This document shows, piece after piece, positions 5,813 to 62,079 of a stretch of DNA of 64,000 bases. Position 1 is the stretch's first letter, and each line of letters opens with the position of its first letter. The notes beneath the pieces were generated by a model that did no database searches, was not told the origin of the DNA, and worked only from the letters and a program-made list of their open reading frames with translations. Origin of the DNA: Polyangiales bacterium (GTDB lineage: Bacteria > Myxococcota_A > Polyangia > Polyangiales > Polyangiaceae); the NCBI GenBank assembly GCA_038231275.1, contig JBBRLQ010000029.1, positions 1-64,000 of the forward strand. Reading direction: 5' to 3'. A program made the position numbers and the translations under genes.

Positions 5813-7537
5813 GTGGATCCGTTTGGCGTCGTGGGGACGGCGATCGCGGGGAAGTACCGCGTCGATCGGGTCATCGGCGAGGGGGGCTTCGGCGTCGTCT
5901 ACGCGGGGTTCCATCAAGTGATCGGGCAGCCCGTGGCGATCAAGCTGATGAAGCCCGCAGGGGACATCGCCGATCGCGCGCGCAACGCGGACGCCTTCCT
6001 CCGTGAGGCGCGCGTGCTGTTCGATCTCGCGCACCCGTCGATCGTGCGCCTCTACGACGTCGGGATGACGACGACGCGGATCGGCGAAGTGCCGTACGTC
6101 GTCCTCGAGCTCATCGCCGGAGTGTCGCTCGCCGAAGAAATTCGGAGACGCGCGCGCAGAGAGGCGCCGCCGTTCTCTGCGGCGGAGATCTTCGCGATTT
6201 TCGACGGGCTGCTCGATGGTCTCGCGGCGGCGCACGCGCGGGGCGTCGCGCACCGAGATCTGAAGCCGTCCAACGTGATGCTGACGCGCGATCCGGCGGG
6301 GGCCATCACGGCGAAGGTGCTCGATTTCGGGACGGCGCGCGCGGGCGGGGGCGTCGCCTCGATGGGGCCTGCGGGGTTCACGCCGCTCTATGCTGCGCCC
6401 GAGCAGTGGGACGCGCGCTTCGGAGCGACGGGGCCAGCGACCGATGTGTTCGCGGCGGGTCTCCTGCTCGCAGAGACGGCGCTCCTCACGCCGCCGCTCG
6501 CGGGGGAGGGGATCGCGCAGATCGCGGGCGCCGCGATGGATGCGTCGCGGCGCCCGAGCATCACCGCGCGCCGCTCCGACGTGCCGCGCGAGCTCGACGC
6601 CGTGGTCCTCCGCGCGACGCGCCCCGCGCCCGCCGAGCGCTTCGCCGACGCCGCCCAGATGCGTGCGGCCCTGCGCGCGGCGTTCGGGACGAGCATCGCG
6701 GGCGCGATGGCACCGGCGCCGCTCGCGTTCACGGTCGCGCCGCCGATGTCTCCTTCAGGGCCACCCGGAACGAGCCCGTTTCCTGGGACCGAGCCGGTGT
6801 ACGGCGCCGGACCTCCGGGGGCGCCCGGTGGAGCCATGATCATGGTCGGCGGGCCTCCTCCGCGCGGTGCGCTCACGACGAACGCGCCGGTTCAGCAAAC
6901 GACGCTGCCCTCTGCGTCGCCGTCAACGGGCCCGCACCCGCTCTCGATCGTCGCGCTGGTGGTCGGCCTCGCGGCGCTCGGCGCGGTGCTCGCGTTCAGC
7001 GTGGTGCTCGTCATCTACCTGCGGAGAGAGGACGCCGCTGCAACGGCTTCCCCCACCGCCGCACCTCCCGCCGCACCTCCCGCTCCGACGAAAGAGCCGA
7101 CGCGTCCCGGCGCCTCACCCACGCCGACCTCACCCGCGCCGGCCCCCCCGCACGGCGCGACGACGGACGCCGGTGCCGTCACGCCGCCACCGCCTACGCC
7201 CCGACCCGCCGGCGACCCGCGCATCACAATCGGAACGCAGATGACGGGCGCATTCGACGCCGCCGAGCTGAAGCGCCTCGCGGAGTCTCACCGCGGCGAG
7301 CTCGTCACCTGCTACCGCGAGTCGCTCGCCCACGATCCGACCTTCCGCGCGACCGCCACGGTCACGGTCATGAGCACGCTCGGTCCGAGCGACTGCCACT
7401 TCGACGTGCGCAAGGACGACGAGGCAGACGCGATGTGCAGCTGCCTCAAGGCGACGATGTCGTCTTGGAAGATCCCGAAAGCCAACAATATTTGGGGCTC
7501 GTCGCTGTTCGAGTACGTGATCTTCTTCTCTCCGTAG
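5813..7537 (+). CDS. Membrane Ser/Thr protein kinase, tandem paralog of 4266..5759
   Basis: Near-identical N-terminus (GTAIAGKYRVDRVIGEGGFG); HRDLKPSN, DFGTAR, YAAPEQW; TM; Pro-rich linker; LVTCYRESLAHDP C-terminal domain. Confidence 0.9.
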   Translation: MDPFGVVGTAIAGKYRVDRVIGEGGFGVVYAGFHQVIGQPVAIKLMKPAGDIADRARNADAFLREARVLFDLAHPSIVRLYDVGMTTTRIGEVPYVVLELIAGVSLAEEIRRRARREAPPFSAAEIFAIFDGLLDGLAAAHARGVAHRDLKPSNVMLTRDPAGAITAKVLDFGTARAGGGVASMGPAGFTPLYAAPEQWDARFGATGPATDVFAAGLLLAETALLTPPLAGEGIAQIAGAAMDASRRPSITARRSDVPRELDAVVLRATRPAPAERFADAAQMRAALRAAFGTSIAGAMAPAPLAFTVAPPMSPSGPPGTSPFPGTEPVYGAGPPGAPGGAMIMVGGPPPRGALTTNAPVQQTTLPSASPSTGPHPLSIVALVVGLAALGAVLAFSVVLVIYLRREDAAATASPTAAPPAAPPAPTKEPTRPGASPTPTSPAPAPPHGATTDAGAVTPPPPTPRPAGDPRITIGTQMTGAFDAAELKRLAESHRGELVTCYRESLAHDPTFRATATVTVMSTLGPSDCHFDVRKDDEADAMCSCLKATMSSWKIPKANNIWGSSLFEYVIFFSP

Positions 7538-7583: not shown

Positions 7584-8765
7584 ATGGAGCGAATCGGCGA
7601 GTACCTCATCAAGCGCCTGGTCGGCGAAGGCGGCATGGGCAAGGTCTACGAGGCCGAGGAGCGGCTCTCGAAGCGCAAGGTCGCCCTTAAAGTTCTGCGA
7701 CCCGAGCTGTCGCGCAGCGAGGATGGCCGGCGGCTGTTCTTGAACGAGATGCAGATCCTGGCGCACCTCGAGCACCCGAACATCGTCCGGAGCCTCGCGT
7801 CGATGGAGGAGGGCGGGCAGCTCGTGCTCGTGCTCGAGTACCTGAACGGACGCACGCTGCGTGACGAGATCACCGCGCGCGGGAAGCTGCCGTGGCCGGA
7901 GGCGGTGGAGATCGGCGTCCAGATCGCGCGTGCGCTGGAGGTCGCGCACACCCAGGCGCCGCCGATCGTGCACCGTGACCTGAAGCCCGAGAACGTGATG
8001 CTGATGGGCGAGGGGACCAGCGAGCTGAAGGTCATGGATTTCGGCATCGCGAAGGTGCTCGAAGCCGTGCACGCGACGAACACGCAGAGCATCGGCACGC
8101 TGCAGTACATGAGCCCCGAGCAGATCGACGCCAAGACGATCGACGCGCGAAGCGATCTGTATTCGCTGGGGCTCATGCTCTACGAGATGATCTCGGGGCG
8201 ACCGCCCTTCCGCTCGGCGTCGCCACGCGAGCTCTTGAACATGCAGTGCACGCAGCAGCCGCCCGAGCTGGAGGACGACGTGCGGGCGACGCTGCCGCGC
8301 GGTGTGGAGGAGCTCGTGTACGCGCTGCTCGAGAAGGCGCCGGACGCGCGGCCGAAGACCGCGGTCGAGGTCGCGGCGCAGCTGCAGCCGTTCCGGCCCG
8401 CAGAGGGGCGCGTGCCGAGGACCTCGCGAATGGGGCGGCCGTCCGCGCCGTCGGACGGGCCGCGCACCGATCCGCTGCCGGGCGTAGCGCGCGTGTCGCG
8501 CGAGCCGCGTGAGGCCTCGCGCCCGTCGTCGAGCGAAGCGGAGCGCCCCGCCGCGTCCCCAAAGCTCGACACTGTGGCGCTGGTCGAAAAGGCGACCGCG
8601 CCGAAAGAGATCCCGACGTTGATCGCGGTCCTCGTGATCGTTGCGCTGTCGCTGGTGGCTGGGCTCGCCACGTACGTCGTGCGCGCGCGGACCGGCACGA
8701 CGGTGGAGCCCGCGGGGACGGGAACGACGACCGCCGCGCGTGCGACGGACGGCAAGCGACCCTAG
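7584..8765 (+). CDS. Ser/Thr protein kinase with C-terminal TM anchor
   Basis: GEGGMG, VALK, HRDLKPEN, DFG, GTLQYMSPE, SDLYSLG. TM LIAVLVIVALSLVAGLATYVV followed by a very short tail. Confidence 0.92.
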   Translation: MERIGEYLIKRLVGEGGMGKVYEAEERLSKRKVALKVLRPELSRSEDGRRLFLNEMQILAHLEHPNIVRSLASMEEGGQLVLVLEYLNGRTLRDEITARGKLPWPEAVEIGVQIARALEVAHTQAPPIVHRDLKPENVMLMGEGTSELKVMDFGIAKVLEAVHATNTQSIGTLQYMSPEQIDAKTIDARSDLYSLGLMLYEMISGRPPFRSASPRELLNMQCTQQPPELEDDVRATLPRGVEELVYALLEKAPDARPKTAVEVAAQLQPFRPAEGRVPRTSRMGRPSAPSDGPRTDPLPGVARVSREPREASRPSSSEAERPAASPKLDTVALVEKATAPKEIPTLIAVLVIVALSLVAGLATYVVRARTGTTVEPAGTGTTTAARATDGKRP

Positions 8766-8774
8766 CCGCAGACC

Positions 8775-11700
8775 ATGACCGAGCTTTCGAAGGCCCCACG
8801 ACCGGTCGCGAGCGAGGCGCTCGAGGGGATCGGGCGTGCGGCGCGCGCGCGAGGAGAAGCGGGCGAAGTGTGGGCCCTCGGAGCGGCGGACGCTGCGCTG
8901 GCGGCGCGGCTCCTCACGTTCGGGGAGGCAGGTCTCGGCGGATTTTCGCGTGGCGGGCTGGACGACGACGGCGTGTGGCTCGTGCGGAGGTCGGTCTCGC
9001 GGACCCTCGACGGGCTCGCGCGCGGGGAGCGGCTCCCGTGGTCGCAGGGCCTCGGCGTCGTGCGCGCGCTCGCGGGTGCGCTCGCGGCGGCCGAAGGGGC
9101 GGGGCTCTTCCCGGGTGCGCTGCGCCCCGCGGAGATTGCGCTCTCCGACGACGGGGCGTTCTTCCTCGCCGAGCCCCTCGTGCGCGCGCTGGTCGGCGCC
9201 GCGAAGGACGCGCGCGGTACGAGCGCGCCGTCCCCGCGGTGGACACCTCCCGAGCAGACCGGCGGCGCTCCGTGGGATGCGGCCGCCAACCGCTACGTGC
9301 TCGGCCTTGTCGCGTACCGGCTCCTCGCGGGCGGCATGCCGTTCGGTGGCGCGGGCCTTCGTCACGCGATGCGCGAGCAAGGCGAGGCGGCGGCGCCGTT
9401 CGAGGAGGCCATCGCGCGCGAGCTCAAGCCCGGCGTGCAGAGCTTCGTCCTGCGCCTCCTCGATCCCGACGTGCGGCAGCGACCTTCCTCGGCCGCCGCG
9501 CTCGCGTCGCTGTGCGCGGAGCTCCTCGGCGAACGACGTCCGCGTGAGAGCCCGTTGCCCACGCGCGCGGCGAAGTCGGCGTCGGCGGCGGCGCCAGCGG
9601 GCGCGATCGCTCCACCCGCGCCGGCGACCGCGTCGCCCGCGCGTTCGCCATCTGCGACCCGCGCGGGGACGAAGAAGCCGGCGACGCCGCGCCCGCGGTG
9701 GTACGCGGCGATCCCCGTGGGGGTAGGGATCGCGCTCGGCGGCGCGCTCTTCGCCGCCGCGGCACCTCGGACGGCGGCTCCTCGCGCCGACGCGCCGACA
9801 GCGATTCGCCCGAGCCCGCCGCTCACGTCGGCGGTGTCGCAGGAGTGCACGTCGTGCCACGCCCGTCAGGTCGCCGAGTGGCAACGGAGCGTGATGGCAC
9901 ACGCCCTCCGAAGTCCGCTTTATGGCGCGCTCGAGAGCGTCGTCGAGGAGCAAATCGGGAGAGACGAGCGATGCCCCAACGGCGCCGGCATTCTCCGGAA
10001 AGCCGGCGGCGACACGTGTCGCGATGAAAAGACCGGTCTCACCATCACCGGCACCGGCGGCGAGCTGTGGTGCGTGAACTGCCACGCGCCCGCCGAGAAC
10101 CTGAAGGCCGCGTCGATGCCGGCGTGGAGCGCGCTCGGCGATCGCCGCGCCCGCGCGCCCATCCGCGATCTCGTCAGCGGCGCGTCGCTCGAGGGAATCA
10201 GCTGCGCGGGCTGTCATACGACGATCGGCCCGGTCGGTGGCCGCGGCAGCTTCACCGGAGCCGGCGCCCGCTACGAGGGCAACCCCACGTGGACGTCGTT
10301 CCTCACCGGGCAGACGTTCCGCTCGCGACCCGAGGACGGGCAGGGGCGGCTCGGGATCGCGAACAGCGGGTACCAGCTCGACGGCCGCTCCTTCTTTGGC
10401 GCGTCGCTTGGAAATGGCGAGCCGATCGTCCACCGCCGCGCCTCGAGCGAGACGCGCGCATACCTCTCGTCGAGCGAGTTCTGCGGCGCCTGCCACGACG
10501 TCCGCCTCTTCGGTACCGACGTCCTCGGCGTCCGCGAGCGCGGCGATCACTTCAAGCGCCTCCGCAACGGCTACAGCGAGTGGCGCGAGTGGTCGGAGTC
10601 CGAGAAGCGCAGCGGCCGCGCGGCGCCGACGTGCCAGGGCTGCCACATGAGCCTCTACCCCGGCGTGTGCGTCGCGGGCGGCGCCAACGCCGCCAACGGA
10701 GCGAAGGGGACCGACGCGTGCCCGACCGGGACGCATTTCGAGCCGCGCCCGGCCGGTGAGTTCCAGCGCGCGCGCATGTCGGCGTCGTCCGACCACGAGG
10801 CGCCCTCGGCGTCGCACTACTTCACCAGCGTGGAGATCCCGCTCGCCACCGAGTTCAAGGACGCGTTCGCCGACGAGACGTCGCTCGATGCCGCCGGAGT
10901 CCCGCTGGGCCTCCGAGCACGCCGCGATCTCCTCCTCGCGCACACGTTCCGCTTCGAACTCGGCGCCGGCCGCCGGAGCGGCGCGCGCCTCGAGGTGCCG
11001 GTCGTCATCCAGAACACCGGCGCGGGGCACCGCGTGCCGGGCGGGTTCAGCCAAGAGCGCGAAGTGTGGGTCGAGCTCACCGTGAAAGACGGGCGCGGCA
11101 ACGTCGTCTACGAGGTCGGGCGCATCGCCGGACCCGACGCCGATCTGCGCGACAAGATCTTCTTGCGCACGACGACGTCCGACGATCTCACCGACGCGCG
11201 CGGGCGACCGCTGGGCCTGTTCGGCGCCGATGTCGTCGACGGCCCCGACGTCCCCGCGTGGAGCCCCAATCCGGCGCGAGGCGGCACCACGTTCCGCGGG
11301 CGCGGCCTCGTGAATCTCCAAAATGGCTTCTTGCGCTGCGTGAAGTGCATCGGCTTCGTCGACGCGGCCGGCCAGTGCCAAGCGCTCCCAGGACAGGGGC
11401 GCACGCGCGCCGATCGCTTCGACGACGGCGCGTACGATCTCGACACCGGCGAGTGCCGCTCGAACCTGACGAGCGGCAACGAGCTCTTCGAGACGTATTT
11501 TCCTGTCGGCGCGCTCGACGCCGAGCGTGGCATCGCGAAGGCGCCCGACGCGATCATCGACACGCGCTCGGCGCCGCCCGGCGTGGTCCTCACCTACACG
11601 TACGATCTCGACGTGGGCGCGCACCCGCCGCCCTTCGAAGTGGACGCGCGCCTGCGTTTTCGGAGCTTCCCGCCGTATTTGATCCGCGCGTTCGCGGCGT

Positions 11701-11816
11701 ACGAGGCGCGCAAGGCGGCGCAGGGGCTGCGGCCGAGCGGTCCCCAGGTGACGCCCGCGATGCTCCGGCGCGTGGAGGTGACGGACGTAGGCGCCGCGCA
11801 CGCGAGGATCCCGTGA
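8775..11816 (+). CDS. Pseudokinase-TM-pentaheme cytochrome c (c554-like) fusion
   Basis: Degenerate kinase C-lobe (FPGALRPAEI, WTPPEQ, ANRYVLGLVAYRLLAGGMPF); TM near 9700-9760. CxxCH at 9846, 10071, 10203, 10482 and 10632. NTGAGHRVPGG motif. Confidence 0.85.
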   Translation: MTELSKAPRPVASEALEGIGRAARARGEAGEVWALGAADAALAARLLTFGEAGLGGFSRGGLDDDGVWLVRRSVSRTLDGLARGERLPWSQGLGVVRALAGALAAAEGAGLFPGALRPAEIALSDDGAFFLAEPLVRALVGAAKDARGTSAPSPRWTPPEQTGGAPWDAAANRYVLGLVAYRLLAGGMPFGGAGLRHAMREQGEAAAPFEEAIARELKPGVQSFVLRLLDPDVRQRPSSAAALASLCAELLGERRPRESPLPTRAAKSASAAAPAGAIAPPAPATASPARSPSATRAGTKKPATPRPRWYAAIPVGVGIALGGALFAAAAPRTAAPRADAPTAIRPSPPLTSAVSQECTSCHARQVAEWQRSVMAHALRSPLYGALESVVEEQIGRDERCPNGAGILRKAGGDTCRDEKTGLTITGTGGELWCVNCHAPAENLKAASMPAWSALGDRRARAPIRDLVSGASLEGISCAGCHTTIGPVGGRGSFTGAGARYEGNPTWTSFLTGQTFRSRPEDGQGRLGIANSGYQLDGRSFFGASLGNGEPIVHRRASSETRAYLSSSEFCGACHDVRLFGTDVLGVRERGDHFKRLRNGYSEWREWSESEKRSGRAAPTCQGCHMSLYPGVCVAGGANAANGAKGTDACPTGTHFEPRPAGEFQRARMSASSDHEAPSASHYFTSVEIPLATEFKDAFADETSLDAAGVPLGLRARRDLLLAHTFRFELGAGRRSGARLEVPVVIQNTGAGHRVPGGFSQEREVWVELTVKDGRGNVVYEVGRIAGPDADLRDKIFLRTTTSDDLTDARGRPLGLFGADVVDGPDVPAWSPNPARGGTTFRGRGLVNLQNGFLRCVKCIGFVDAAGQCQALPGQGRTRADRFDDGAYDLDTGECRSNLTSGNELFETYFPVGALDAERGIAKAPDAIIDTRSAPPGVVLTYTYDLDVGAHPPPFEVDARLRFRSFPPYLIRAFAAYEARKAAQGLRPSGPQVTPAMLRRVEVTDVGAAHARIP

Positions 11817-14002
11817 GCTGGCCGGAGATCGTGTGGAGCGCGGCGGCGCTCCGCCCTCTCGACGCGCGCGCCCGCTCCGAGATCGAGGCCGCGGGCACGC
11901 TCAAGACCTTCGCGCGCGGCGAGCGCGTCTTCGCCGCCGGGCAGCCGGCCGACGCGCTCTTCGTGGTCGCGGCCGGACGGGTCGGCGTTCGCGCGGTTCG
12001 GCGGGGCGAGGTAGATGCGACGGTGCTCCGCGAGATCGCCGAGGGGGAGACGTTCGGCGAGGAGGGCTCGTTTCGTCCCGGGGGCACGCGCCACATGGAC
12101 GCGTCGGCGCTCGCCGAGAGTCGCGTCGCCGAAATCCCGCTGGGCGTCTTTCGCCGCGCGCTCGAACGAGGCGCGGGCAGCGCGGAGCTCGTCCTCCGTC
12201 ACGAGCGTGCGCTTCGGCGAACGGCCACGCGCGACGTCTTGAGGACGCTCGCCTTCGCGCGTCACGTCGACGACCGAGAGCTCGACGCGCTCCTCGATGC
12301 CACCGAGCACGTCGACCTCGCGCGCGGGCAGCTTCTGTTCCGCGAGGGCGAGAAGGCCACGCACGTGTACTTCGTCGCCGACGGAATGCTCCAGATCCAG
12401 ACCGAGGATCTCGGAAAAATTCGCGTCCGCGCGTACGTCGTTCGCGGCGACGTGCTCGGCGACGTCGAGGTCGGGACTGGTGGGGCGCGCGAGGTGAGCG
12501 CGGTCGCGTCCGGCGCGGCGTGGGTCCTCGCGATCCCGCGCACGGCGTTCCTCGGCTTCGCGCGGCGTCACCCTGGCCTGATGGACGGCATCCGCCGCGT
12601 CGCCGAGGAGCGCGAGGAGGCGCAGCACGCCGCCGCCGGCGCGATGCTAACGACGCGCCACATCTTCAAGGACCTCTACCGAATGCAGGTCGCGCGGTCG
12701 CTCCTCGTCATCGACGAAGGCGCCTGCGTGCGGTGCGGCCACTGCGCGTGGAGCTGCGCGTCGTCGCACGACGACGGCGTCTCGCGCCTCGTGCGACGGG
12801 GAGACAAGATCGTGACGCTCGCGGCGTCGGGCGACGACCCGCTCCTCGTCCCCAGCAGCTGCCAACACTGCGACAACCCGGCGTGCATGATCGACTGCCC
12901 GACCGGCGCGATCGGCCGCGATCCCCGCGGCGAGGTGTTCATCCGCGAGGACCTCTGCACGGGCTGCGGCAACTGCGCGAAGGGGTGCCCGTGGGACAAC
13001 ATTCAGATGGCGCCGCGCGCGCGCGCGAAGGGAGCGACGGTCGCCGAGCGCACGCCGGGACGCACGCGCGACGTCGCGGTCAAATGCGATCTCTGCAAAG
13101 GGCGCGACGGCGGGCCCGCGTGCGTGTCGTCGTGCCCGACCGGCGCCATCGCGCGCGTGAACCCCGAAGAGGCGATCCCCGAGGTGGGCGCAGCGCTCGG
13201 CGTGCGCACGAGAACGATCCTCCCTCGCGCGCGCGCAGCGTGGCCGGCCGTGGCCGGGGCCGTTCCAGTCGCCGCGGCGCTGACGTTGCACCGCTCGACG
13301 ACGCGCGCTTCGTACTTGGTGAGCGGCGGCGTGGCGGCGGCACTCCTCCTCGCGCTCGCGGCGTACGCGATCGTGAAGCGCGTCGTCCAGCCTCGCCTCC
13401 GCGTGTGGCTCATCGCGCACTACGCGCTCGGGGTCGTGACGATGGGCGCGATCGTCGCGCACGCAGGCGCGCGCGTCCCGCCGAACGTCGCCGGCGCGCT
13501 CCAACTGGCGTTCTGGGGCACGGCGATCTCCGGCATTTTTGGCGGGATCGTGTACCGGGCGCTCCCGTCACGCCTGTCGCGCGTGGAGCGAAAGGGCGCC
13601 CTGCCGGAGGATCTCGCGCCGCAGCAGCGCCAGCTCGACGAGCGAACGTTCGTCGAGCTCACCGGCAAGAGCGAGGTGCTGAAGACCGTGTGGTCGCGCA
13701 TTCTCCGGCCGTATGCGCGCGCGACGCTCGGCCCGGCCGCGCTGCTGATGTCGGGGCGAACGCTCGGCGGGGAGCAGCGTCACGTGCGCGCGAGGATCGA
13801 AGGGGTCCTCGGGGGGCGCGGGAACGAGAAGCTCCAAGGCCTCGACGCGCTCGTGCGGCTGGCGGTCGAGCGGCGCGCGCTGCCGCTCCAGCGCGTGCTG
13901 CAGGCGGCCCTCCGTGCGTGGATGCCGATGCACGTCGCGCTCACTGCGATCGTGCTCGTGCTGCTCGTCGCGCACGTCTGGCTGGCGACGAGGTACCGAT
14001 GA
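11813..14002 (+). CDS. Two cNMP-binding domains + 4x[4Fe-4S] (DmsB/NrfC-type) + His-bearing membrane (cytochrome b-like) domain
   Basis: GTG start overlaps upstream TGA. cNMP folds (GERVFAAGQPADALFVV..FGE..R; GQLLFREGEKATHVYFV..GD..R). Four Cys groups. Two H-x13-H pairs in hydrophobic helices. Confidence 0.85.
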   Translation: MSWPEIVWSAAALRPLDARARSEIEAAGTLKTFARGERVFAAGQPADALFVVAAGRVGVRAVRRGEVDATVLREIAEGETFGEEGSFRPGGTRHMDASALAESRVAEIPLGVFRRALERGAGSAELVLRHERALRRTATRDVLRTLAFARHVDDRELDALLDATEHVDLARGQLLFREGEKATHVYFVADGMLQIQTEDLGKIRVRAYVVRGDVLGDVEVGTGGAREVSAVASGAAWVLAIPRTAFLGFARRHPGLMDGIRRVAEEREEAQHAAAGAMLTTRHIFKDLYRMQVARSLLVIDEGACVRCGHCAWSCASSHDDGVSRLVRRGDKIVTLAASGDDPLLVPSSCQHCDNPACMIDCPTGAIGRDPRGEVFIREDLCTGCGNCAKGCPWDNIQMAPRARAKGATVAERTPGRTRDVAVKCDLCKGRDGGPACVSSCPTGAIARVNPEEAIPEVGAALGVRTRTILPRARAAWPAVAGAVPVAAALTLHRSTTRASYLVSGGVAAALLLALAAYAIVKRVVQPRLRVWLIAHYALGVVTMGAIVAHAGARVPPNVAGALQLAFWGTAISGIFGGIVYRALPSRLSRVERKGALPEDLAPQQRQLDERTFVELTGKSEVLKTVWSRILRPYARATLGPAALLMSGRTLGGEQRHVRARIEGVLGGRGNEKLQGLDALVRLAVERRALPLQRVLQAALRAWMPMHVALTAIVLVLLVAHVWLATRYR

Positions 14003-16113
14003 AGCCGGACGCGCCGGGCACGCCGAAGGAGCTCGCGACGCTCGACGCCGCCGCCGCGCGTCGAGCGCGAACAGCGCCCCGCGCAGTTGCGACCAGCGAC
14101 GTCACCCGCGTTCGCGACATGGCGATCGCGGCCGGCGCGGGCGCGATCGCGGCGATCGGGGCCCTCGTGCTCGTACCCTCGGGTGCCCCGGAAGCGTCCC
14201 CCGGACCGCTCGCGCGCCCACACGCGCAAGCCAAGCTCCCTTGCACGGCGTGCCACTCGGACAAGGAGGGCGCGCCCGCTCCGCGCGCCGCGTGCGGCGG
14301 CTGCCACGGTGGGCCCGCCCACGCCTCACTCCGCGCCGGACACCGCGCGCTCGCGGCGAAAGGCGAGCTCGGCTGCATCACGTGCCACCCCGCCCACGGC
14401 GACGCGCGCGGCGTCACCTTCGCGAGCGACGGGAGCTACGTGCTTTGGTCGAGCGGCGTCGAGTCTCGGGGCAATGCCGCGCACGCGACGCCCGGCGGCG
14501 CGACGGTACCGCTCGTCCCCGTCGCCGTCTGCGCCAAGTGCCACGACGCGCAAGACCCGCGCGATCCGCTCGCCTCGTGCACGGCCCCCGGCGCCGCAAT
14601 CTCCACGTGCTTCGACGAGCACCAGCGCGCCGACCAGACGACTCCCGCCGGCAATCGCTGCGCCGCGCAGCACGGCCCCGCGCGCTTCGTCGCGTGGGAG
14701 TCCGCGCGTGAGATCGCCCAGGCCGCTCCGGCGCCGGTGCGCGCGAGCGGCGCCGGTCCATTGGGCATCGTCGGCGCAGGTCTCGGCGCGTCCAGCCTCG
14801 CCCTCGTCGCCGCGACCGCACTTCGCCGTCGCCGTCGCCGGGCCGCGCCCGACGCGGAGGCCAAGCTGCCGGCGGGCGCGCGCCTCCGCTTGCCGCAGAT
14901 CGATCCGACGACGTGCATCGGCTGCTACGCGTGCGTGGACGCGTGCCCCTTCGACGTCATCGAGATCGAGCGCTACGTCGCCAAGGTCGTTCGCCCGTCA
15001 GACTGCTGCGGCGTCGTCCTCTGCGAGCAAGTGTGCCCGAATGGCTCTCTTGTGATCGCCGAGGGCGAGCCGATCGCGACGCGTCTCAACCTCGACGACC
15101 GGCTCGAGTCACGCGACGCGCCCGGCGTCTTCGTCGCCGGCGACCTGTCGGGCCTGCCCCTCATCAAGAACGCGATCGTCCAGGGTCGCCGCGTCGTCGA
15201 GCATGTCGCCGCATCGCTCCCCGCGAAGGAGCGCGTCAAGAGCCCGTCCGCGACCGAAGTGGACCTCGTCATCGTCGGAGCGGGACCCGCCGGGATCAGC
15301 GCGTCCCTCCGCGCGCGCGAGCTCGGCCTGTCGTACGTGACCCTCGAGCAAGGGACCGTCGCGTCGAGCGTGAAGAGCTTCCCGCGCAGCAAGCTCGTCT
15401 TCGATCAGCCGCTCGATCTCCCCGTCGAAGGCGAGCTCTGGCTCAAAGAATCGACGAAGGAGGAGCTCCTCGCGCAGTGGACGCGCATCGTCCGCGCGCG
15501 CAAGCTCGCGGTCCGCGAAGGACGACGCGTGGACGCCGTCACCCGCGAGGGAAAGACCCTGATCGTGTCGAGCATCGACGCGACAGGCGGACGCGAGACG
15601 ATCCGCGCCGCGCGCTTGGTCCTCGCGATCGGCAAGCGCGGCACCCCCAAGACCCTCGCATGTCCGATCGCAGCGGCCGCCGAGGGTAAGGTCGCCTATT
15701 CGCTCGCCGACGCGCGCAGCTTCGCCGGCCAGCGCGTCCTCGTGGTCGGCCTCGGGGACACCGCGATGGAGGCGGCGATCGCCCTCGCGCGCCAGCCGGG
15801 CACCGCGGTGACGATCGCGTACCGCGGCGCCGCGTTCCAGCGCGGCAAGGCCCGCAACGTGGCCGAGGTGAAGCGCCTCCTCGCGCGCGGCGCCGTCCGC
15901 ATCCTCTTCGAGAGCCACGTCAGCCGCATAGGCGCCGATGCGGTCACTCTCGAAGGCCCTCGCGGGCGCGAGGATCTGCGCATCGATGCGGTCTTCGTCC
16001 TCATCGGCGGCGTGCCGTCGTGGGATCTGGTCCAGCAGGCCGGAGTCAAAATGACCATCCAAGCACTGGACATCACCTCAGAAATTTCAAAATCCGCGCC
16101 TCCGACGATTTGA
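13999..16113 (+). CDS. Tetraheme cytochrome c + ferredoxin + FAD/NAD(P)H TrxB/YpdA-like oxidoreductase fusion
   Basis: ATG overlaps upstream TGA. CxxCH at 14242, 14293, 14374 and 14530 between two hydrophobic segments. CIGCYACVDACP and CCGVVLCEQVCP. GAGPAG, GLGDTA, YRGAAF. Confidence 0.85.
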   Translation: MKPDAPGTPKELATLDAAAARRARTAPRAVATSDVTRVRDMAIAAGAGAIAAIGALVLVPSGAPEASPGPLARPHAQAKLPCTACHSDKEGAPAPRAACGGCHGGPAHASLRAGHRALAAKGELGCITCHPAHGDARGVTFASDGSYVLWSSGVESRGNAAHATPGGATVPLVPVAVCAKCHDAQDPRDPLASCTAPGAAISTCFDEHQRADQTTPAGNRCAAQHGPARFVAWESAREIAQAAPAPVRASGAGPLGIVGAGLGASSLALVAATALRRRRRRAAPDAEAKLPAGARLRLPQIDPTTCIGCYACVDACPFDVIEIERYVAKVVRPSDCCGVVLCEQVCPNGSLVIAEGEPIATRLNLDDRLESRDAPGVFVAGDLSGLPLIKNAIVQGRRVVEHVAASLPAKERVKSPSATEVDLVIVGAGPAGISASLRARELGLSYVTLEQGTVASSVKSFPRSKLVFDQPLDLPVEGELWLKESTKEELLAQWTRIVRARKLAVREGRRVDAVTREGKTLIVSSIDATGGRETIRAARLVLAIGKRGTPKTLACPIAAAAEGKVAYSLADARSFAGQRVLVVGLGDTAMEAAIALARQPGTAVTIAYRGAAFQRGKARNVAEVKRLLARGAVRILFESHVSRIGADAVTLEGPRGREDLRIDAVFVLIGGVPSWDLVQQAGVKMTIQALDITSEISKSAPPTI

Positions 16114-16159: not shown

Positions 16160-17755
16160 ATGAAGATCCGCAGCGTCGCTCTTTGGGCCGTCCTCGGCGT
16201 GGTCGCTTCCAGTGCGGGAGCCCTCGCCATCCCGGTTCCGGCGACGACCGCGCGACCCGTTCAGGTCTCTCCCGAGGGCTGGCTCGGCAAGGAAGACGGT
16301 CAGGTGACCCGCGCCCACTTCACCGCAGGTCAAACGCTCGTCGTCGACGGACGGCTCGGGCATGCGTCGATCGCGAAGACCGGGCGCGGCGAGACGTACT
16401 TCTTCGCGTCGGTGACCGGCGCCGACGCGTCGTCCACCGCCTCGGCGTCGCCGATGAACCTCGCGATCGTGATCGATCGCTCGGGCTCGATGAAGGGCGA
16501 CCGCATCGCCAACGCGATGACCGCCGCCGTCGGCATGGTCGAGCGCATGCGCGAGGGCGACAGCGTCACCGTCGTCAGCTTCGACACCGAGTCCTCGGTC
16601 GTCGTCCCGCCGACGGTCACGACCGCGTCGACCCGCCCGTCGATCGCAGCGGCCATCCGCTCCATCCGCCTCGGCGGCGACACGTGCATCTCGTGCGGCC
16701 TCGAAGAGGGCATGCGCCAGCTCGATCGAACGACGCTCGGCGGCGATCGCGTCAACCGGATGATCCTCCTGTCGGACGGAGCGACCAACCACGGCATCCG
16801 CGACCTCGGCGGTCTACGCGGAATGGCCGGGCACATGCGCGATCGCGGGCTGTCGATCTCGACGATCGGCGTCGATCTCGACTTCGACGAGAAGGTCATG
16901 GCGGCGATCGCGTCGGAGTCGAACGGCCGGCATTATTTCGTCGCGAATCCGTCGGGGCTCCCTGCGATTTTTTCGCAGGAGTTCGACTCGCTGCTCGCTT
17001 CGGTGGCCGGCGACGCGGAGCTCTCCGTGGATCTGCCGCCCGGCGTGGAGGTCGAGCAGGTCTTCGATCGCACGTTCCGTCGCGAGGGCTCGAGGATCAT
17101 CGTGCCGTTCGGGACGTTCAGCGCGAAGCAGGAGAAGACGGTGCTCATGAAGCTCCGCGTGCCCGCCGATCGCGAGGGCCTGCAGCCCATCGTGGACGTG
17201 AAGCTCGCGTACCGGGATCTGGTGCAGAAGACCGACGGGAGCTGCAGCGGCTCGCTGGCCGCGCTCGTCACCGGGGACGCGGACGCGCAGAAGGATCTGG
17301 ACCCGTTCGTCGCGGCCCGCCTCGAGCGGAGCCGCACGGCGCAGACGCTCACCGACGCGAACCTCCTCTTCGAGCAGGGCCGCATCGTCGAAGCGCGTGC
17401 GCGCCTTCGTGGACAGCGCGACGAGCTCGAGAAGAGCAAGGCCGTCGCGCACGCCGCGGCGACCGCACGTCCCACGGTGAACCCGTTCCGCGGCCGTACG
17501 CTCGACGACGACTTCGGCGCGCAGCAGCAAGCGGTCGCGCAGGCCGAAGCGAATTTCGCTACGCCGCCCGCGAAGGTCGCAGGAGGCTCGGCCGCCGGCG
17601 CGGGCTTCGGCGGCCTCGCGAGCGCGACGCCCCGCAACGGTCCGTTCGCCACGCCGCCTGCCGCGCAGCCCGCCGCGCCGCCCGCCGCCGATTCGCGCGA
17701 GGGCAAAGCGGCCCGCAAGGACAACCAGCAGCGCGCGACCGACTTCGCGTTCTGA
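16160..17755 (+). CDS. Secreted von Willebrand factor A domain protein (YfbK-like)
   Basis: Signal peptide; MIDAS DRSGSM; GGDT; LLSDG; STIGVDLDFDE. Confidence 0.85.
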   Translation: MKIRSVALWAVLGVVASSAGALAIPVPATTARPVQVSPEGWLGKEDGQVTRAHFTAGQTLVVDGRLGHASIAKTGRGETYFFASVTGADASSTASASPMNLAIVIDRSGSMKGDRIANAMTAAVGMVERMREGDSVTVVSFDTESSVVVPPTVTTASTRPSIAAAIRSIRLGGDTCISCGLEEGMRQLDRTTLGGDRVNRMILLSDGATNHGIRDLGGLRGMAGHMRDRGLSISTIGVDLDFDEKVMAAIASESNGRHYFVANPSGLPAIFSQEFDSLLASVAGDAELSVDLPPGVEVEQVFDRTFRREGSRIIVPFGTFSAKQEKTVLMKLRVPADREGLQPIVDVKLAYRDLVQKTDGSCSGSLAALVTGDADAQKDLDPFVAARLERSRTAQTLTDANLLFEQGRIVEARARLRGQRDELEKSKAVAHAAATARPTVNPFRGRTLDDDFGAQQQAVAQAEANFATPPAKVAGGSAAGAGFGGLASATPRNGPFATPPAAQPAAPPAADSREGKAARKDNQQRATDFAF

Positions 17756-33670: not shown

Positions 33671-33733
33671 GCGAATTCGCGCCGCCAAGATGCCCTTGGC
33701 GTCTGCCGGCGCGGTGGTAACGTGTTCGTCCTC

Positions 33734-34273
33734 ATGAAGCGCTCGATCTTCGCCGTCGTCTGCTTGCTCTTCGTCACCCTCGCCGCCAGCGCGTGGGCGC
33801 TCGATCCCGACAAGAACGGCTGGTACTTCACCGGCAGCGGCGTCCGGACCAAGAGCGTCGCGTTCGTCAGCGTGAAGGTCTACGCCATCCGCCACGACAT
33901 GAAGGCGCTGCCGCCGAGCAAGTCGAAGCAGGCGATCGTCGAGGCCGACGTCGACAAGAAAATAACCTTCCGCATGCTCCGCGACGTCGACGCCGAGAAG
34001 ATCCAGGACGCCCTCAAGGACGCCTACAAGATGAACGGCTGGTCCGACGGCAGCAAGACGGGCCCCTTCCTCGGCGCCATGAACAAAGAGCTGAAGGAGG
34101 GGACGTACGTGACCATCTCGTACAACGCCGGGAGCAAGACGACGTCGATCAGCGTGTCGAACGGCGGCAACGCGAGCGTCGCGGGCATCGACTTCATGAA
34201 GGCGACGTGGAGCATCTGGTTCGGCAAGATCGATCAGCCGTCGCTCGGCGACGCGATGATGGGCAACCTGTAG
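33734..34273 (+). CDS. Secreted chalcone-isomerase-like fold protein
   Basis: Signal peptide; GSGVRTKSVAFVSVKVYA; FMKATWSIWFG. Confidence 0.75.
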   Translation: MKRSIFAVVCLLFVTLAASAWALDPDKNGWYFTGSGVRTKSVAFVSVKVYAIRHDMKALPPSKSKQAIVEADVDKKITFRMLRDVDAEKIQDALKDAYKMNGWSDGSKTGPFLGAMNKELKEGTYVTISYNAGSKTTSISVSNGGNASVAGIDFMKATWSIWFGKIDQPSLGDAMMGNL

Positions 34274-34283
34274 AGCGGAAACG

Positions 34284-35276: not shown

Positions 35277-35364
35277 AAAAGGCGCCTTTCCGCGCGCCGC
35301 CGCCCGTCGTCGCCGAGGCAAGTCCTGTGATATGCCAAGGGCCCATCTCACCCGAGGAAACGCC

Positions 35365-37359: not shown

Positions 37360-37365
37360 CGGCCG

Positions 37366-38394: not shown

Positions 38395-38532
38395 GTCCTT
38401 CAGTAGTCCCCCGACGGCGGCGGGTTTCAAGTATTTCCTGCGAGAAGCGGCATTTGGACCACATTCGGCCACCCTGGAGGGGCGCGGGGCGCGGGGTGCG
38501 CGTGGGCCGAGCGCTTGCCTGTCGGACGGCGC

Positions 38533-41956: not shown

Positions 41957-41987
41957 TCGATTCGCTCTCCGATGCCTTGGATGCTCG

Positions 41988-42884: not shown

Positions 42885-43171
42885 CGGCGTCCCTCTCTCT
42901 GTGAACTGTGTCTTCCGGTGTCTGCTCCGTGCGTTCACGCACCCCATGACGCGCGCGCCGCACGTGCCCATGGCGCTTTGGCCACGGGAAGGCGCGAGGA
43001 TACACCCCTGCGGAGGCCGCGAAAGCCCCAACTCCGCGCGTCCGTCGCAACCACGCTGCCCGGAATCGCTCGCCAGTCTCGTGCGTTGGCGATGCTCATC
43101 CGCCGTCGTCACGTGCCCGTCACAGGACGCGCGAGACCTCGGCGTTTCCGATCGCGCGATGCCTCACGCCA

Positions 43172-47301: not shown

Positions 47302-47303
47302 TC

Positions 47304-54163: not shown

Positions 54164-54242
54164 TCTTGACGCGGCAGCTGTTAGACTGCCGACCAGTTTG
54201 CCTAAACCCGGGACTGACCGAAGACGAGTGTGAGAGAGAGGA

Positions 54243-61845: not shown

Positions 61846-62079
61846 GGAGGTCTCCTGTCGCCGGGGCAAAATGAGCGCCGGCGGTGAACGTTGGCGGGCG
61901 AAAGGCGCCGCTCCCCCGTCTCTACGCAGCAAAAGGACGAACGATCTGAATAACCGCCCCGGCGCGTGTACAGGGCCTCCGCGCACCGTGGCGCACCTTG
62001 GGCGAGAAACGTTTTCCCGCGACGCCGAGTTGAGAAGACTCCAGCGGGCTCCCGCGGTACCTTTATGCATCCGCGCGTG

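What the first reader, a model, noticed from the sequence alone, without database searches (positions are those of the whole stretch)
7584..16113. Candidate kinase- and cyclic-nucleotide-controlled transmembrane electron-transfer system
Seen: four tightly coupled genes (9-nt gap, then GTGA and ATGA overlaps). They encode (1) an intact membrane Ser/Thr kinase, (2) pseudokinase-TM-5xCxxCH, (3) 2x cNMP + 16-Cys Fe-S + membrane His pairs, and (4) 4xCxxCH-TM-ferredoxin-FAD/NAD(P)H reductase. Established: these are the parts of a redox wire (NAD(P)H, FAD, Fe-S, heme b, periplasmic heme c). Inference: they form one complex moving electrons between cytoplasmic NAD(P)H and about nine extracytoplasmic hemes, gated by cNMP and coupled to phosphorylation signalling. 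No molybdopterin or other standard respiratory catalytic subunit is present. I know of no characterised system with this layout.
Basis: partly seen in the sequence, partly recalled or inferred. Interest (0 to 1): 0.9.

Follow-up and report, generated by a model that had tools for sequence, protein, structure and literature searches.

The report
Kinase-linked NAD(P)H-to-periplasm heme wire
Soil and marine myxobacteria of the Polyangia group carry a conserved, uncharacterised gene set that looks built to pass electrons from NAD(P)H inside the cell across the membrane to nine hemes outside it, with a protein kinase and cyclic-nucleotide sensors fused to the same proteins.

Summary
Four tightly coupled genes sit at 7584-16113 (9-nt gap, then GTGA and ATGA overlaps). 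They encode:
- P1: an intact membrane Ser/Thr kinase.
- P2: pseudokinase, one TM helix, five CxxCH.
- P3: two cNMP domains, 16-Cys four-cluster Fe-S domain, 5-TM domain with four invariant His.
- P4: TM, four CxxCH, TM, ferredoxin, FAD/NAD(P)H reductase.

The set is not a chance neighbourhood. 183 species genomes encode a P3 relative and 80 loci were kept. P4 follows P3 in 61 of 61 testable loci. P2 precedes P3 in 61 of 62. A P1-type kinase precedes P2 in 54 of 56. Every titled locus is from Myxococcota.

All cofactor ligands are invariant, and topology puts hemes c outside and flavin/Fe-S inside.

P2's outer part belongs to a broad uncharacterised pentaheme family, distantly related to the polysulfide reductase MccSep/ExtKL.

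Seven full-text searches found no description of the system.

Not shown: physical assembly (the complex predictor was unavailable), direction of electron flow, the acceptor, and any gating.

Verdict: a real, conserved, new variant of transmembrane redox complexes. Interest 0.75.

The parts
7584..8765 (+). P1: active Hanks-type Ser/Thr kinase (aa 1-280), linker, one TM (aa 343-361), about 30 aa outside
   Evidence: Pfam Pkinase E 1.2e-56. TM. Catalytic motifs kept in 53 sequences. A P1-type kinase lies just upstream of P2 in 54 of 56 loci.
8775..9704 (+). P2 N-terminal cytoplasmic pseudokinase (aa 1-310)
   Evidence: PADLOC kinase model E 4.4e-20 over aa 57-307. BLASTP to P1 E 4e-9. HRD replaced by PG[PA], no G-loop or Lys, C-lobe motifs kept, in 58 sequences. 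Fused in frame in 55 of 58 loci.
9705..9761 (+). P2 single TM helix (aa 311-329), preceded by a Lys/Arg-rich stretch
   Evidence: Hydropathy scan; sequence.
9765..11813 (+). P2 periplasmic pentaheme domain (aa 331-1013). Five CxxCH. A beta-rich part carries an invariant GAGH..P.GFSQERE motif. A Cys-rich insertion carries C855, C858, C868 and C894.
   Evidence: Heme Cys/His 40 of 40. hhalign to a stand-alone multiheme family: probability 100%, E 2.9e-99, 481 columns. Weak collinear match to PDB 5ze8. ExtKL model 20.8 bits against a cut-off of 250.
11813..12637 (+). P3 tandem cyclic-nucleotide-binding domains CNB-A and CNB-B (aa 1-275), cytoplasmic
   Evidence: Pfam cNMP_binding E 2.1e-30, two stretches. 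The AF2 model is confident here, and Foldseek matches the tandem CNB of PKA-R and PKG at E 4.5e-15. Signature counts.
12701..13162 (+). P3 four-cluster [4Fe-4S] ferredoxin domain (aa 297-450, 16 Cys), cytoplasmic
   Evidence: Fer4_11 41.6 bits against a cut-off of 26.2. HydN, NrfC, DmsB and DsrO models hit below cut-off. PDB HycB3 9.8e-22, FdnH 4.7e-15. 16 Cys invariant.
13235..13999 (+). P3 membrane domain (aa 475-729). Five TM helices and a cytoplasmic helical insert of about 115 aa. H536 and H550 lie on TM3, H707 and H721 on TM5.
   Evidence: Family-averaged hydropathy and K+R counts. Four His invariant. AF2 gives helices with block pLDDT mostly 69-92, one block at 61. No PDB sequence relative. 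Ferric_reduct only 14.1 bits against a cut-off of 28.
13999..14823 (+). P4 N-terminal part: Arg-rich cytoplasmic tail with a conserved T-S-D-V-T-R motif, TM1 (aa 41-59), periplasmic c3-like tetraheme domain (aa 60-256), TM2 (aa 257-275)
   Evidence: CxxCH x4 and TMs. Cytochrom_c3_2 25.5 bits against a cut-off of 25 on the excised domain. Cytochrome c3 3cyr E 0.1. Four motifs plus H75, H115, H133 and H208 invariant in 35 sequences.
14893..15045 (+). P4 cytoplasmic 2x[4Fe-4S]-type ferredoxin domain (aa 299-349, eight invariant Cys)
   Evidence: Pfam Fer4, Fer4_7 and Fer4_10. Invariance.
15097..16110 (+). P4 cytoplasmic FAD/NAD(P)H flavoprotein (aa 367-704), of TrxR-like FNR/YpdA type. The 'GD' FAD segment sits before the GxGxxG motif.
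   Evidence: Pyr_redox_3 E 5.8e-31. YpdA model 128 bits against a cut-off of 340, covering profile positions 1-264 of 316. PDB Bdr 7a7b 8.4e-38, FNR 3ab1 3.3e-26. The GD segment aligns to C-terminal segments of LpdA, GltD and glutathione amide reductase.
16160..17755 (+). Fifth gene: secreted VWA-domain protein (531 aa) with signal peptide, intact MIDAS motif and a conserved TCxSCG
   Evidence: Pfam VWA E 6.8e-20. Follows P4 within 2.8 kb in 38 of 56 loci, and lies elsewhere in the locus in 7 more. MIDAS residues at 90% or more in 46 sequences.

Best explanation
The genes encode one inner-membrane redox module found so far only in Polyangia-type myxobacteria.

PROPOSED ELECTRON PATH
1. P4's cytoplasmic flavoprotein takes electrons from NAD(P)H and passes them to its own ferredoxin clusters.
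2. They move to the four [4Fe-4S] clusters of P3.
3. They cross the membrane through two b-type hemes. These are held by H536 and H707 on the inner side and by H550 and H721 on the outer side.
4. They reach P4's membrane-tethered c3-like tetraheme domain.
5. They reach the five hemes of P2, whose large periplasmic domain is the likely exit or catalytic end. The acceptor is unknown.

ENERGETICS (MY REASONING)
Moving electrons outward from NAD(P)H dissipates membrane potential. The module would therefore be a regulated reductive or signalling device, not a coupling site.

PROPOSED CONTROL
- P3's PKA-R-like tandem cNMP domains.
- The P1 kinase, acting with P2's pseudokinase as docking or allosteric partner.

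SHOWN
Domain make-up, ligand conservation, sidedness, gene order, translational coupling, co-inheritance.

INFERRED
Assembly into one complex, the b-hemes themselves, direction of flow, the acceptor, and both control layers.
For: DOMAINS AND MOTIFS
-.

LIGAND INVARIANCE
- P3: 16 Cys and 4 His in 25 sequences.
- P2: 5 CxxCH in 40 of 40. Spare ligand candidates are H553, H681, H752, M374 and M625 (all 40 of 40), H376 (37 of 40) and H592 (35 of 40).
- P4: 4 CxxCH, at least 4 further His, 8 Fd Cys, and the GxGxxG and GxGD motifs in 35 sequences.

SIDEDNESS
- P3 has five family-averaged TMs. Mean K+R is 4.0, 6.3 and 24.5 in the loops placed inside, and 0.8, 0.8 and 1.0 in those placed outside. Both His-bearing helices therefore run from inside to outside.
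- The AF2 model gives the same helices at block pLDDT mostly 69-92.
- P4 carries Arg-rich stretches on the cytoplasmic side of both its TMs.

P4 CANNOT CARRY ELECTRONS ACROSS ALONE
- It has only two TM helices, and no invariant His lies in either TM segment, 41-59 or 257-275.

SYNTENY (80 LOCI KEPT OF 183 GENOMES)
- P4 heme part 65 of 65, Fd 64 of 64, reductase 61 of 61.
- P2 C-terminal part 69 of 70; P2 heme part 61 of 62.
- All four genes in 46 of 50 full-context loci.
- Refined counts: P1 54 of 56, pseudokinase 55 of 58.
- A P3/P4 4-nt overlap is possible in at least 45 of 61 loci.

CO-INHERITANCE
- Patristic-distance correlations of 0.63-0.75 among P1-P4 in 47 loci. The maximum in 500 label shuffles was 0.21.

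NO OTHER PARTNER
- No other near-universal neighbour gene was found.

FLAVOPROTEIN AND CNB RELATIVES
- The nearest solved flavoproteins are NADPH enzymes: Bdr, and the ferredoxin-NADP reductase 3ab1.
- The CNB pair folds like PKA-R and PKG.
Against:
- The P3 membrane domain matches no known heme-b family. Ferric_reduct scores 14.1 bits against a cut-off of 28. The Atlas lead scores 0.83, below the 0.9 level the tool calls a lead only. No PDB sequence hit.
- Model coordinates could not be read, so His-His geometry was not measured.
- The Fe-S domain of the model is poor, with pLDDT below 50.
- The kinase layer is not universal: L063, L055, L065 and L067 depart from it, and P0138 is a P2 form without pseudokinase.
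- CNB-B has Asp in place of the signature Glu in 21 of 25 sequences and His in place of Arg in 5 of 25.
- Nothing indicates the acceptor or the direction of flow.
- The mirror-tree correlations have no species-tree control. Shared descent alone can produce them.
Confidence: 0.5

Rival explanations
1. Primarily a redox sensor. P2's periplasmic hemes report the outside redox state, or a ligand, through the pseudokinase to the P1 kinase. P3 and P4 only set a reference by poising those hemes against cytoplasmic NAD(P)H and cNMP. Electron flux is small and the output is phosphorylation.
For: - P1 has no sensor domain of its own, only about 30 aa outside. It sits next to a pseudokinase-TM-heme protein in 54 of 56 loci.
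- P1's catalytic motifs are strictly kept.
- There are enough invariant His and Met for all five P2 hemes to be six-coordinate, which suits electron transfer or sensing rather than catalysis.
- No acceptor-specific gene is conserved nearby.
Against: - The P3-P4 pair is the most conserved part. It exists without P1 and P2 next to it in Minicystis rosea.
- Haliangium keeps P1 but drops the pseudokinase.
- A 15-cofactor chain is a large investment for a reference electrode.
- P2's outer domain belongs to a family of stand-alone secreted cytochromes that carry no signalling domain.
Confidence: 0.2
2. A quinone-linked respiratory enzyme. P3's membrane domain is a quinone/quinol site, as in FdnI, NarI or DsrM. 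The module is then either an NAD(P)H:quinone reductase or a quinol:cytochrome c reductase, and not a direct wire from the cytoplasm to the periplasm.
For: - P3's Fe-S domain is of the type that wires catalytic subunits to quinone-reactive membrane subunits. The FdnH, NrfC, DmsB, DsrO and HybA models all hit, though below cut-off, as does PDB FdnH at 4.7e-15.
- Diheme b subunits such as DsrM react with quinone (PMC10861901, passages read).
Against: - No sequence match to any quinone-reactive b-subunit family at E up to 10.
- The fused periplasmic tetraheme and the pentaheme partner would have no role in an NAD(P)H:quinone enzyme.
- A quinone site cannot be seen or excluded from sequence.
Confidence: 0.15
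3. Inward flow. P2 oxidises a low-potential periplasmic donor, for example a reduced sulfur species, and the chain delivers electrons to ferredoxin or NAD(P)+ in the cytoplasm. This would be like the Tmc and Hmc complexes of sulfate reducers, and would build membrane potential.
For: - The layout of an outer c3-like cytochrome, membrane b-hemes and a cytoplasmic Fe-S protein resembles that of Tmc, Hmc and DsrMKJOP. These are described as transmembrane complexes of similar architecture in PMC10861901.
- P2's only characterised distant relative acts on sulfur compounds (preprint 10.1101/2025.11.18.688581).
Against: - Reducing NAD(P)+ needs a donor near or below about -320 mV (my knowledge).
- No hydrogenase, formate dehydrogenase or sulfur-oxidation gene is conserved nearby.
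- No HdrD-like CCG domain is present.
- From my knowledge, the cultured carriers are aerobes.
Confidence: 0.1
4. The genes are merely neighbours with unrelated functions.
For: Myxobacterial genomes hold very many kinases. Three stand in a row here, and two of them are clearly not part of the set.
Against: - Order, strand and overlaps are kept across families down to 37-60% identity.
- P4's two halves lie on opposite sides of the membrane and have no route between them without a partner.
Confidence: 0.03

Closest known systems
Tmc / Hmc / DsrMKJOP transmembrane redox complexes of sulfate reducers
   Same: A periplasmic c-type cytochrome (c3-like in Tmc and Hmc), membrane b-hemes and a cytoplasmic Fe-S protein link the two sides of the inner membrane. 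The architecture is described in PMC10861901 (passages read). P4's outer domain is c3-like.
   Different: - No HdrD-like CCG catalytic subunit and no NrfD-type subunit.
- The cytoplasmic end here is an NAD(P)H flavoprotein with a ferredoxin.
- The b-heme domain is fused to a four-cluster ferredoxin placed in the cytoplasm.
- cNMP, kinase and pseudokinase domains are built in.
- Found in Polyangia, not in sulfate reducers.
NADPH oxidase / ferric reductase family (NOX, FRE, MsrQ-type)
   Same: - Same logic: NADPH, then FAD, then two bis-His b-hemes stacked across the membrane, then an outside acceptor.
- Two His per helix on two helices, 14 apart. The likeness to NOX spacing is recalled.
- Regulation by phosphorylation and second messengers in eukaryotic NOX is recalled.
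- Two weak leads point to Ferric_reduct.
   Different: - Pfam Ferric_reduct is far below cut-off, 14.1 bits against 28.
- The flavoprotein is TrxR/YpdA-like, not of the FNR-fold NOX dehydrogenase type.
- Six Fe-S clusters and nine c-hemes are added.
- The parts are split over three proteins.
MccSep (ExtKL) pentaheme polysulfide reductase and Thermochromatium tepidum pentaheme c552 (PDB 5ze8)
   Same: - Five CxxCH in a helical cap followed by a beta-sandwich part.
- P2 hits the ExtKL model at aa 736-784. Stand-alone relatives of P2 hit it at E 1e-8 to 1e-15.
- Four collinear weak stretches align with 5ze8.
- The MccSep description comes from passages of preprint 10.1101/2025.11.18.688581.
   Different: - Score of 20.8 bits against a cut-off of 250.
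- P2 has no Cys or Sec between aa 650 and 854, the stretch that holds the beta-rich part.
- P2 is about 260 aa longer, with four insertions.
- P2 is membrane-anchored and fused to a pseudokinase.
Formate dehydrogenase-N FdnH/FdnI and related four-cluster ferredoxin plus diheme-b pairs
   Same: A 16-Cys four-cluster domain next to a diheme-type membrane domain.
   Different: - The Fe-S domain is cytoplasmic, not exported by Tat. It follows two cytoplasmic CNB domains and has no signal peptide.
- It is fused in one chain with the membrane domain.
- His are placed two plus two on two helices, not spread over three helices as in FdnI (recalled).
- No molybdopterin subunit.
PKA regulatory subunit / PKG tandem CNB-A/B
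   Same: P3 aa 1-275 folds as a tandem CNB pair. Foldseek gives E 4.5e-15 to 5j3u, with 2qcs_B and 4z07 close behind. HMM hits. A Ser/Thr kinase is encoded in the same operon.
   Different: - No inhibitor or pseudosubstrate segment before CNB-A. Only about 10 residues precede it.
- The residue after the signature Arg is Gln or His (20 of 25), not Ser, Thr or Ala.
- Fused to a redox membrane protein.

Membership tests
Hanks-type Ser/Thr protein kinase (P1) | Pfam Pkinase above the gathering score | tested here: met
   192.5 bits against 31.7.
Hanks-type Ser/Thr protein kinase (P1) | Catalytic motifs: G-loop, VAIK Lys, HRD, DFG, APE-like | tested here: met
   Present in the window protein. HRDLKPEN is 53 of 53, DFG 52-53 of 53, Lys 52 of 53.
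Pseudokinase (P2 N-terminus) | Kinase fold with the catalytic residues lost | tested here: met
   Kinase models match aa 57-307 at E 4.4e-20. HRD is replaced by PG[PA], there is no G-loop or Lys, and the Asn position varies, in 58 sequences. The fold itself was not modelled.
MccSep / ExtKL pentaheme selenoprotein (NCBIfam NF040886) | Score above the curated cut-off | tested here: not met
   20.8 bits against 250.
MccSep / ExtKL pentaheme selenoprotein (NCBIfam NF040886) | Five CxxCH motifs | tested here: met
MccSep / ExtKL pentaheme selenoprotein (NCBIfam NF040886) | Catalytic Sec/Cys on the Ig-like domain, and a Cys ligand to heme 2 | tested here: inconclusive
   P2 has no Cys between aa 650 and 854, so a Sec/Cys in the beta-rich part is unlikely. 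No residue-level alignment to MccSep could be made: its sequence was not to hand and the P2 fold job failed.
Four-cluster ferredoxin of the FdnH/HybA/DmsB/NrfC/HycB kind (P3 aa 297-450) | Four Cys groups binding four [4Fe-4S] clusters; Pfam Fer4_11 | tested here: met
   16 invariant Cys. Fer4_11 41.6 bits against 26.2.
Four-cluster ferredoxin of the FdnH/HybA/DmsB/NrfC/HycB kind (P3 aa 297-450) | Membership of any named equivalog (HydN, NrfC, DmsB, DsrO and others) | tested here: not met
   All are below cut-off, for example HydN 59.5 against 260 and NrfC 59.1 against 377.6.
Cyclic-nucleotide-binding domain (PF00027) | Pfam score, and the phosphate-binding cassette Gly-Glu ... Arg | tested here: met
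   105 bits against 27.5, two stretches. CNB-A has G82, E83 and R93 in 25 of 25. CNB-B has G216 in 25 of 25, Asp at 217 in 21 of 25 and R226 in 20 of 25.
Cyclic-nucleotide-binding domain (PF00027) | Actual binding of cAMP or cGMP | not testable with these tools
   Needs ITC or a similar assay.
Ferric-reductase-like diheme membrane domain (PF01794; NOX, MsrQ) | Pfam score above cut-off | tested here: not met
   14.1 bits against 28, E 0.051. The Atlas nearest cluster is named ferric reductase-like at score 0.83, a lead only.
Ferric-reductase-like diheme membrane domain (PF01794; NOX, MsrQ) | Two His pairs on two parallel helices, positioned for two stacked hemes | tested here: inconclusive
   H536/H550 and H707/H721 are invariant, 14 apart, on helices of the same orientation. 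Geometry was not measurable because no coordinates were available.
TrxR-like ferredoxin-NADP reductase / YpdA (Bdr) flavoproteins (P4 C-terminus) | Pyr_redox fold with FAD and NAD(P) Gly motifs | tested here: met
   Pyr_redox_3 108.3 bits against 30. G427, G429, G432 and G584, G586, D587 are invariant. PDB 7a7b 8.4e-38.
TrxR-like ferredoxin-NADP reductase / YpdA (Bdr) flavoproteins (P4 C-terminus) | YpdA equivalog cut-off and the canonical order of segments | tested here: not met
   128.3 bits against 339.9. Only profile positions 1-264 of 316 are matched, and the protein ends there. The GD segment lies upstream of GxGxxG.
Class III (c3-type) tetraheme cytochrome (P4 aa 60-256) | Four CxxCH with bis-His ligation; Pfam c3 model | tested here: met
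   Cytochrom_c3_2 25.5 bits against 25 on the excised domain, which is marginal. Four motifs plus H75, H115, H133 and H208 invariant. Bis-His ligation itself is inferred.
Tmc/Hmc/DsrMK-type complexes | Cytoplasmic HdrD-like subunit with a CCG motif | tested here: not met
   No CCG or HdrD-type hit in P1-P4.
Known anti-phage defence systems (PADLOC) | A system-specific protein model beyond generic domains | tested here: not met
   Only generic kinase hits (P1, P2) and CNB-domain hits (P3). Nothing for P4 or the VWA protein.

The most novel reading that the evidence does not exclude
A bacterial counterpart of regulated NADPH oxidases, built from unrelated parts. The module would be a dissipative, NAD(P)H-fuelled electron gun that delivers low-potential electrons to the periplasm or cell surface only on command. 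Possible targets are O2, metals or sulfur species, for attack, defence or mineral chemistry.

The command would come from a PKA-like switch carried on the wire itself. The tandem CNB domains of P3 would hold or release the P1 kinase/P2 pseudokinase pair in response to cAMP or cGMP. Phosphorylation would then open or close electron flow, for example at the conserved T-S-D-V-T-R tail of P4.

This would be the first respiratory-type redox chain with second-messenger and Ser/Thr-kinase control built into its own subunits.
Probability: 0.2. Interest if true: 0.92.

Novelty: new variant of a known kind. Interest (0 to 1): 0.75.

Why it matters
Known routes that carry electrons across the bacterial inner membrane take them from the quinone pool or from thiol relays. 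They are controlled mainly through gene expression.

This module would draw directly on NAD(P)H. It carries its own cyclic-nucleotide sensors and a kinase/pseudokinase pair, so electron export could be switched after translation.

At least 183 species-level genomes of an ecologically important predatory and degradative group encode its P3 subunit, and 46 of 50 full-context loci hold all four genes. Cultured strains among the carriers include Labilithrix luteola DSM 27648 and Paraliomyxa miuraensis, so the idea can be tested directly.

It also gives a first context for a large family of uncharacterised pentaheme cytochromes. An Atlas lead places many of its look-alike clusters in Acidobacteriota.

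Tried and rejected
TOOLS THAT DID NOT RUN
- Complex prediction for P3 aa 285-729 with P4 aa 30-420 was unavailable and nothing was folded. No contact evidence exists in either direction.
Two jobs were interrupted. Only P3 was finally modelled. P2's periplasmic domain was never modelled.

FOLD AND SEQUENCE SEARCHES THAT GAVE LITTLE
- The fold search of the whole P3 model returned only CNB matches. It said nothing about the membrane domain, because no region can be selected.
- Model coordinates are not exposed to scripts.
- PDB sequence and profile searches gave nothing meaningful for the P3 membrane domain (best E 0.75, judged spurious) or for the P2 outer domain (best E 0.044 and 0.12).
- A search for stand-alone relatives of the P3 membrane domain found only 12 fragments of orthologues. 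P0283 is a truncated, frameshifted call.

NEIGHBOURHOOD CHECKS
- Unbiased neighbour clustering found no further near-universal gene. It was noisy: antisense ORFs passed the filter, and many P3 and P4 ORFs were dropped by it.
- The upstream kinases at 4266-5759 and 5813-7537 were considered as members and rejected. Their tails match only L001.
- Promoter and terminator scan: 0 promoters, and 5 terminator-like sites against 5.0 expected.
- Rfam: no hit in 1-24000.
- PADLOC: generic hits only.

LITERATURE
- Searches returned nothing on this system. Only listings (titles and starts of abstracts) were seen.

NOT SEARCHED
I could not check whether P1 and P2 lie elsewhere in Minicystis rosea, or what flanks the stand-alone pentaheme relatives.

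Full report
WHAT IS THERE

The window is about 70% G+C. On the + strand lie four genes:
- P1, 7584-8765
- P2, 8775-11816
- P3, 11813-14002
- P4, 13999-16113

I read the junctions directly. There is a 9-nt gap, then a GTGA overlap, then an ATGA overlap.

THE FOUR PROTEINS

P1 is a complete Hanks-type kinase.
- Pkinase E 1.2e-56.
- One TM helix and only about 30 residues beyond it.
- Its catalytic motifs are kept in 53 sequences.

P2 begins with a kinase-like domain.
- PADLOC kinase model E 4.4e-20 over aa 57-307. 27% identity to P1's C-lobe.
- The catalytic loop reads P-G-[PA] in place of HRD, and there is no glycine loop or Lys. This holds across 58 sequences, so it is a conserved pseudokinase.
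- One TM follows, then a 683-aa periplasmic part with five CxxCH.
- All five are invariant in 40 sequences. H553, H681, H752, M374 and M625 are also invariant.

P3 has three parts.
- Two cNMP-binding domains.
- A 16-Cys four-cluster ferredoxin domain, of the kind found in HycB, FdnH and NrfC.
- A membrane domain.
- All 16 Cys and four His (H536, H550, H707, H721) are invariant in 25 sequences.

P4 runs, in order:
- an Arg-rich tail,
- TM1,
- a c3-like tetraheme domain,
- TM2 followed by six Arg,
- an eight-Cys ferredoxin,
- an FAD/NAD(P)H flavoprotein. Its nearest solved relatives are bacillithiol-disulfide reductase (7a7b, 8.4e-38) and the ferredoxin-NADP reductase 3ab1 (3.3e-26).

SIDEDNESS

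Family-averaged hydropathy gives P3 five TM helices. Mean K+R is 4.0, 6.3 and 24.5 in the three loops placed inside, and 0.8, 0.8 and 1.0 in those placed outside.

TM3 and TM5 therefore both run from inside to outside. H536 and H707 are level near the inner face. H550 and H721 are level near the outer face. This is the pattern expected for two stacked bis-His b-hemes.

The AF2 model (mean pLDDT 71.8, pTM 0.46) shows the same helices at block pLDDT mostly 69-92 and a cytoplasmic helical insert. Its Fe-S part is poor, below 50.

c-type hemes are attached outside the cytoplasm, and Fe-S and flavin domains without export signals stay inside (established knowledge). P4's two halves therefore sit on opposite sides of the membrane. 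Its two TM segments hold no invariant His, so it needs a partner such as P3 to connect them.

CONSERVATION

A scan of one genome per species with a P3 profile found 183 genomes with a relative, and 80 loci were kept. Every title that names a taxon names a myxobacterium: Labilithrix, Polyangiaceae, Nannocystaceae, Kofleriaceae, Haliangium, Minicystis, Byssovorax, Polyangium, Paraliomyxa. The rest carry generic labels.

I counted only loci with enough flanking DNA:
- P4 heme part follows P3 in 65 of 65, ferredoxin in 64 of 64, reductase in 61 of 61.
- P2 C-terminal part precedes P3 in 69 of 70, and P2 heme part in 61 of 62.
- All four genes are present in 46 of 50 full-context loci.

A stricter recount:
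- A P1-type kinase lies just upstream of P2 in 54 of 56 loci. The misses are L055 and L065, where MatE, GST and Rce1-like genes sit instead.
- An in-frame pseudokinase is present in 55 of 58 loci. The misses are L017 (broken), L064 (hit in another frame) and L063.

L063 is a Haliangium locus. It has P1 followed by a P2 that starts directly with the TM. A 730-aa database protein shows the same short form.

Minicystis rosea has only P3-P4, between unrelated genes.

A start codon that gives the 4-nt P3/P4 overlap exists in at least 45 of 61 loci.

Trees of the four proteins give patristic-distance correlations of 0.63-0.75 in 47 loci. The maximum in 500 label shuffles was 0.21. This fits joint inheritance, but there is no species-tree control.

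A secreted VWA protein with an intact MIDAS motif follows P4 in 38 of 56 loci. No other neighbour is near-universal. The two upstream kinases are local additions.

WHAT P2'S OUTER DOMAIN IS

A full-library search gave 684 relatives at E up to 0.001. About ten cluster representatives are full-length orthologues. The remainder are fragments or stand-alone multiheme proteins of roughly 370-1670 aa.

A profile of 14 of these aligns with P2's profile over 481 columns, from aa 18 to 682 of the domain (probability 100%, E 2.9e-99). The whole domain therefore belongs to that family. P2 carries four insertions, one of which holds four invariant Cys.

These relatives hit only generic heme Pfam models. 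They hit the NCBIfam ExtKL model below cut-off, at E 1e-8 to 1e-15. P2 itself scores 20.8 bits against 250.

ExtKL is MccSep. It is a periplasmic pentaheme enzyme with a helical heme cap and an Ig-like stem.

P2's profile also gives four collinear weak stretches with PDB 5ze8, a pentaheme c552.

P2 has no Cys in the beta-rich stretch, aa 650-854. It is therefore not a MccSep. It is a distant cousin of unknown activity.

HOW IT MOST LIKELY WORKS

See Best explanation. The cofactor inventory gives a plausible downhill path: NAD(P)H, FAD, two plus four Fe-S clusters, two b-hemes, four plus five c-hemes.

Outward electron movement consumes membrane potential (my reasoning). That argues for a regulated reductive or signalling role, and fits the heavy regulatory decoration.

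The CNB pair folds like the tandem CNB of PKA regulatory subunits and PKG (E 4.5e-15). CNB-A keeps Gly-Glu and Arg in 25 of 25 sequences. CNB-B is degenerate. P3 therefore looks like a PKA regulatory subunit, and a kinase and a pseudokinase are encoded in the same operon. This is suggestive, but there is no inhibitor segment and no contact test.

COMPARISON WITH KNOWN SYSTEMS

- In layout, the nearest are the Tmc, Hmc and DsrMKJOP complexes (PMC10861901; passages read).
- In logic, the nearest are NADPH oxidases (recalled).
- It belongs to neither family; see Membership tests.
- Database names for P3 and P4 relatives are generic only.
- Seven full-text searches found no description (listings only).

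LIMITS

- No protein-protein prediction.
- No model of P2.
- No fold assignment for the P3 membrane domain.
- Only 80 of 183 loci were examined.

VERDICT

A real, conserved, uncharacterised module. It is best filed as a new variant of transmembrane redox complexes with built-in signalling domains.

Noticed in passing
window 16160-17755 (+): A secreted VWA protein (signal peptide, MIDAS DxSxS...T...D, conserved TCxSCG) lies 46 nt after P4. It is conserved downstream in 38 of 56 loci and is probably a fifth member of the set.
   Followed up: partly
window 4266-5759 and 5813-7537 (+): Two further membrane Ser/Thr kinases lie directly upstream. They are 58% identical to each other, so they look like a tandem duplication. 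Their C-terminal parts match only the closest relative, L001, so they are not core.
   Followed up: yes
window 15097-16110 (P4 aa 367-704): The flavoprotein looks circularly permuted. The 'GD' FAD-binding segment, which is C-terminal in LpdA, GltD and glutathione amide reductase, lies before the GxGxxG motif, and the protein ends where the YpdA profile reaches position 264 of 316. The segment alignments are weak (E 0.09-0.5).
   Followed up: partly
window 14092-14109 (P4 aa 32-37): A conserved cytoplasmic juxtamembrane motif T-S-D-V-T-R (Asp and Arg invariant in 35 sequences). It could be a phosphorylation or docking site for P1.
   Followed up: no
L063 6388-9950 (Haliangium sp.); protein P0138: A natural variant in which P2 lacks the pseudokinase and starts at the TM helix, while the P1 kinase is kept.
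   Followed up: yes
L067 (Minicystis rosea DSM 24000) 9944-14460: Only the P3-P4 pair is present, flanked by a short-chain dehydrogenase and a MatE transporter. I could not check whether P1 and P2 lie elsewhere in this 16-Mb genome.
   Followed up: partly
L017 3373-7485; also L015, L062, L070: Some MAGs hold two loci (L015 with L017; L062 with L070). In L017 the P2 region is split into several ORFs and P3 lacks its first ~120 residues. It may be a decaying second copy or an assembly error.
   Followed up: partly
window 11339-11456 (P2 aa 855-894): A Cys-rich insertion with four invariant Cys, absent from the stand-alone relatives of the pentaheme family. It could be a metal site or a pair of disulfides.
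   Followed up: no
window 33671-43163: A cluster of sugar and oxidative pentose-phosphate genes: glucokinase, transketolase, G6PD with OpcA, and 6-phosphogluconate dehydrogenase. These are NADPH-producing enzymes about 20 kb from an NAD(P)H-consuming module. This is probably coincidence.
   Followed up: no
window 47163-51746, 54234-57791, 60409-62091: Further large signalling and adhesion genes: a FecR-VIT-VWA protein of about 1500 aa, a kinase-AAA-TPR protein of about 1185 aa, and a second VWA protein with 33% identity to the one after P4.
   Followed up: no
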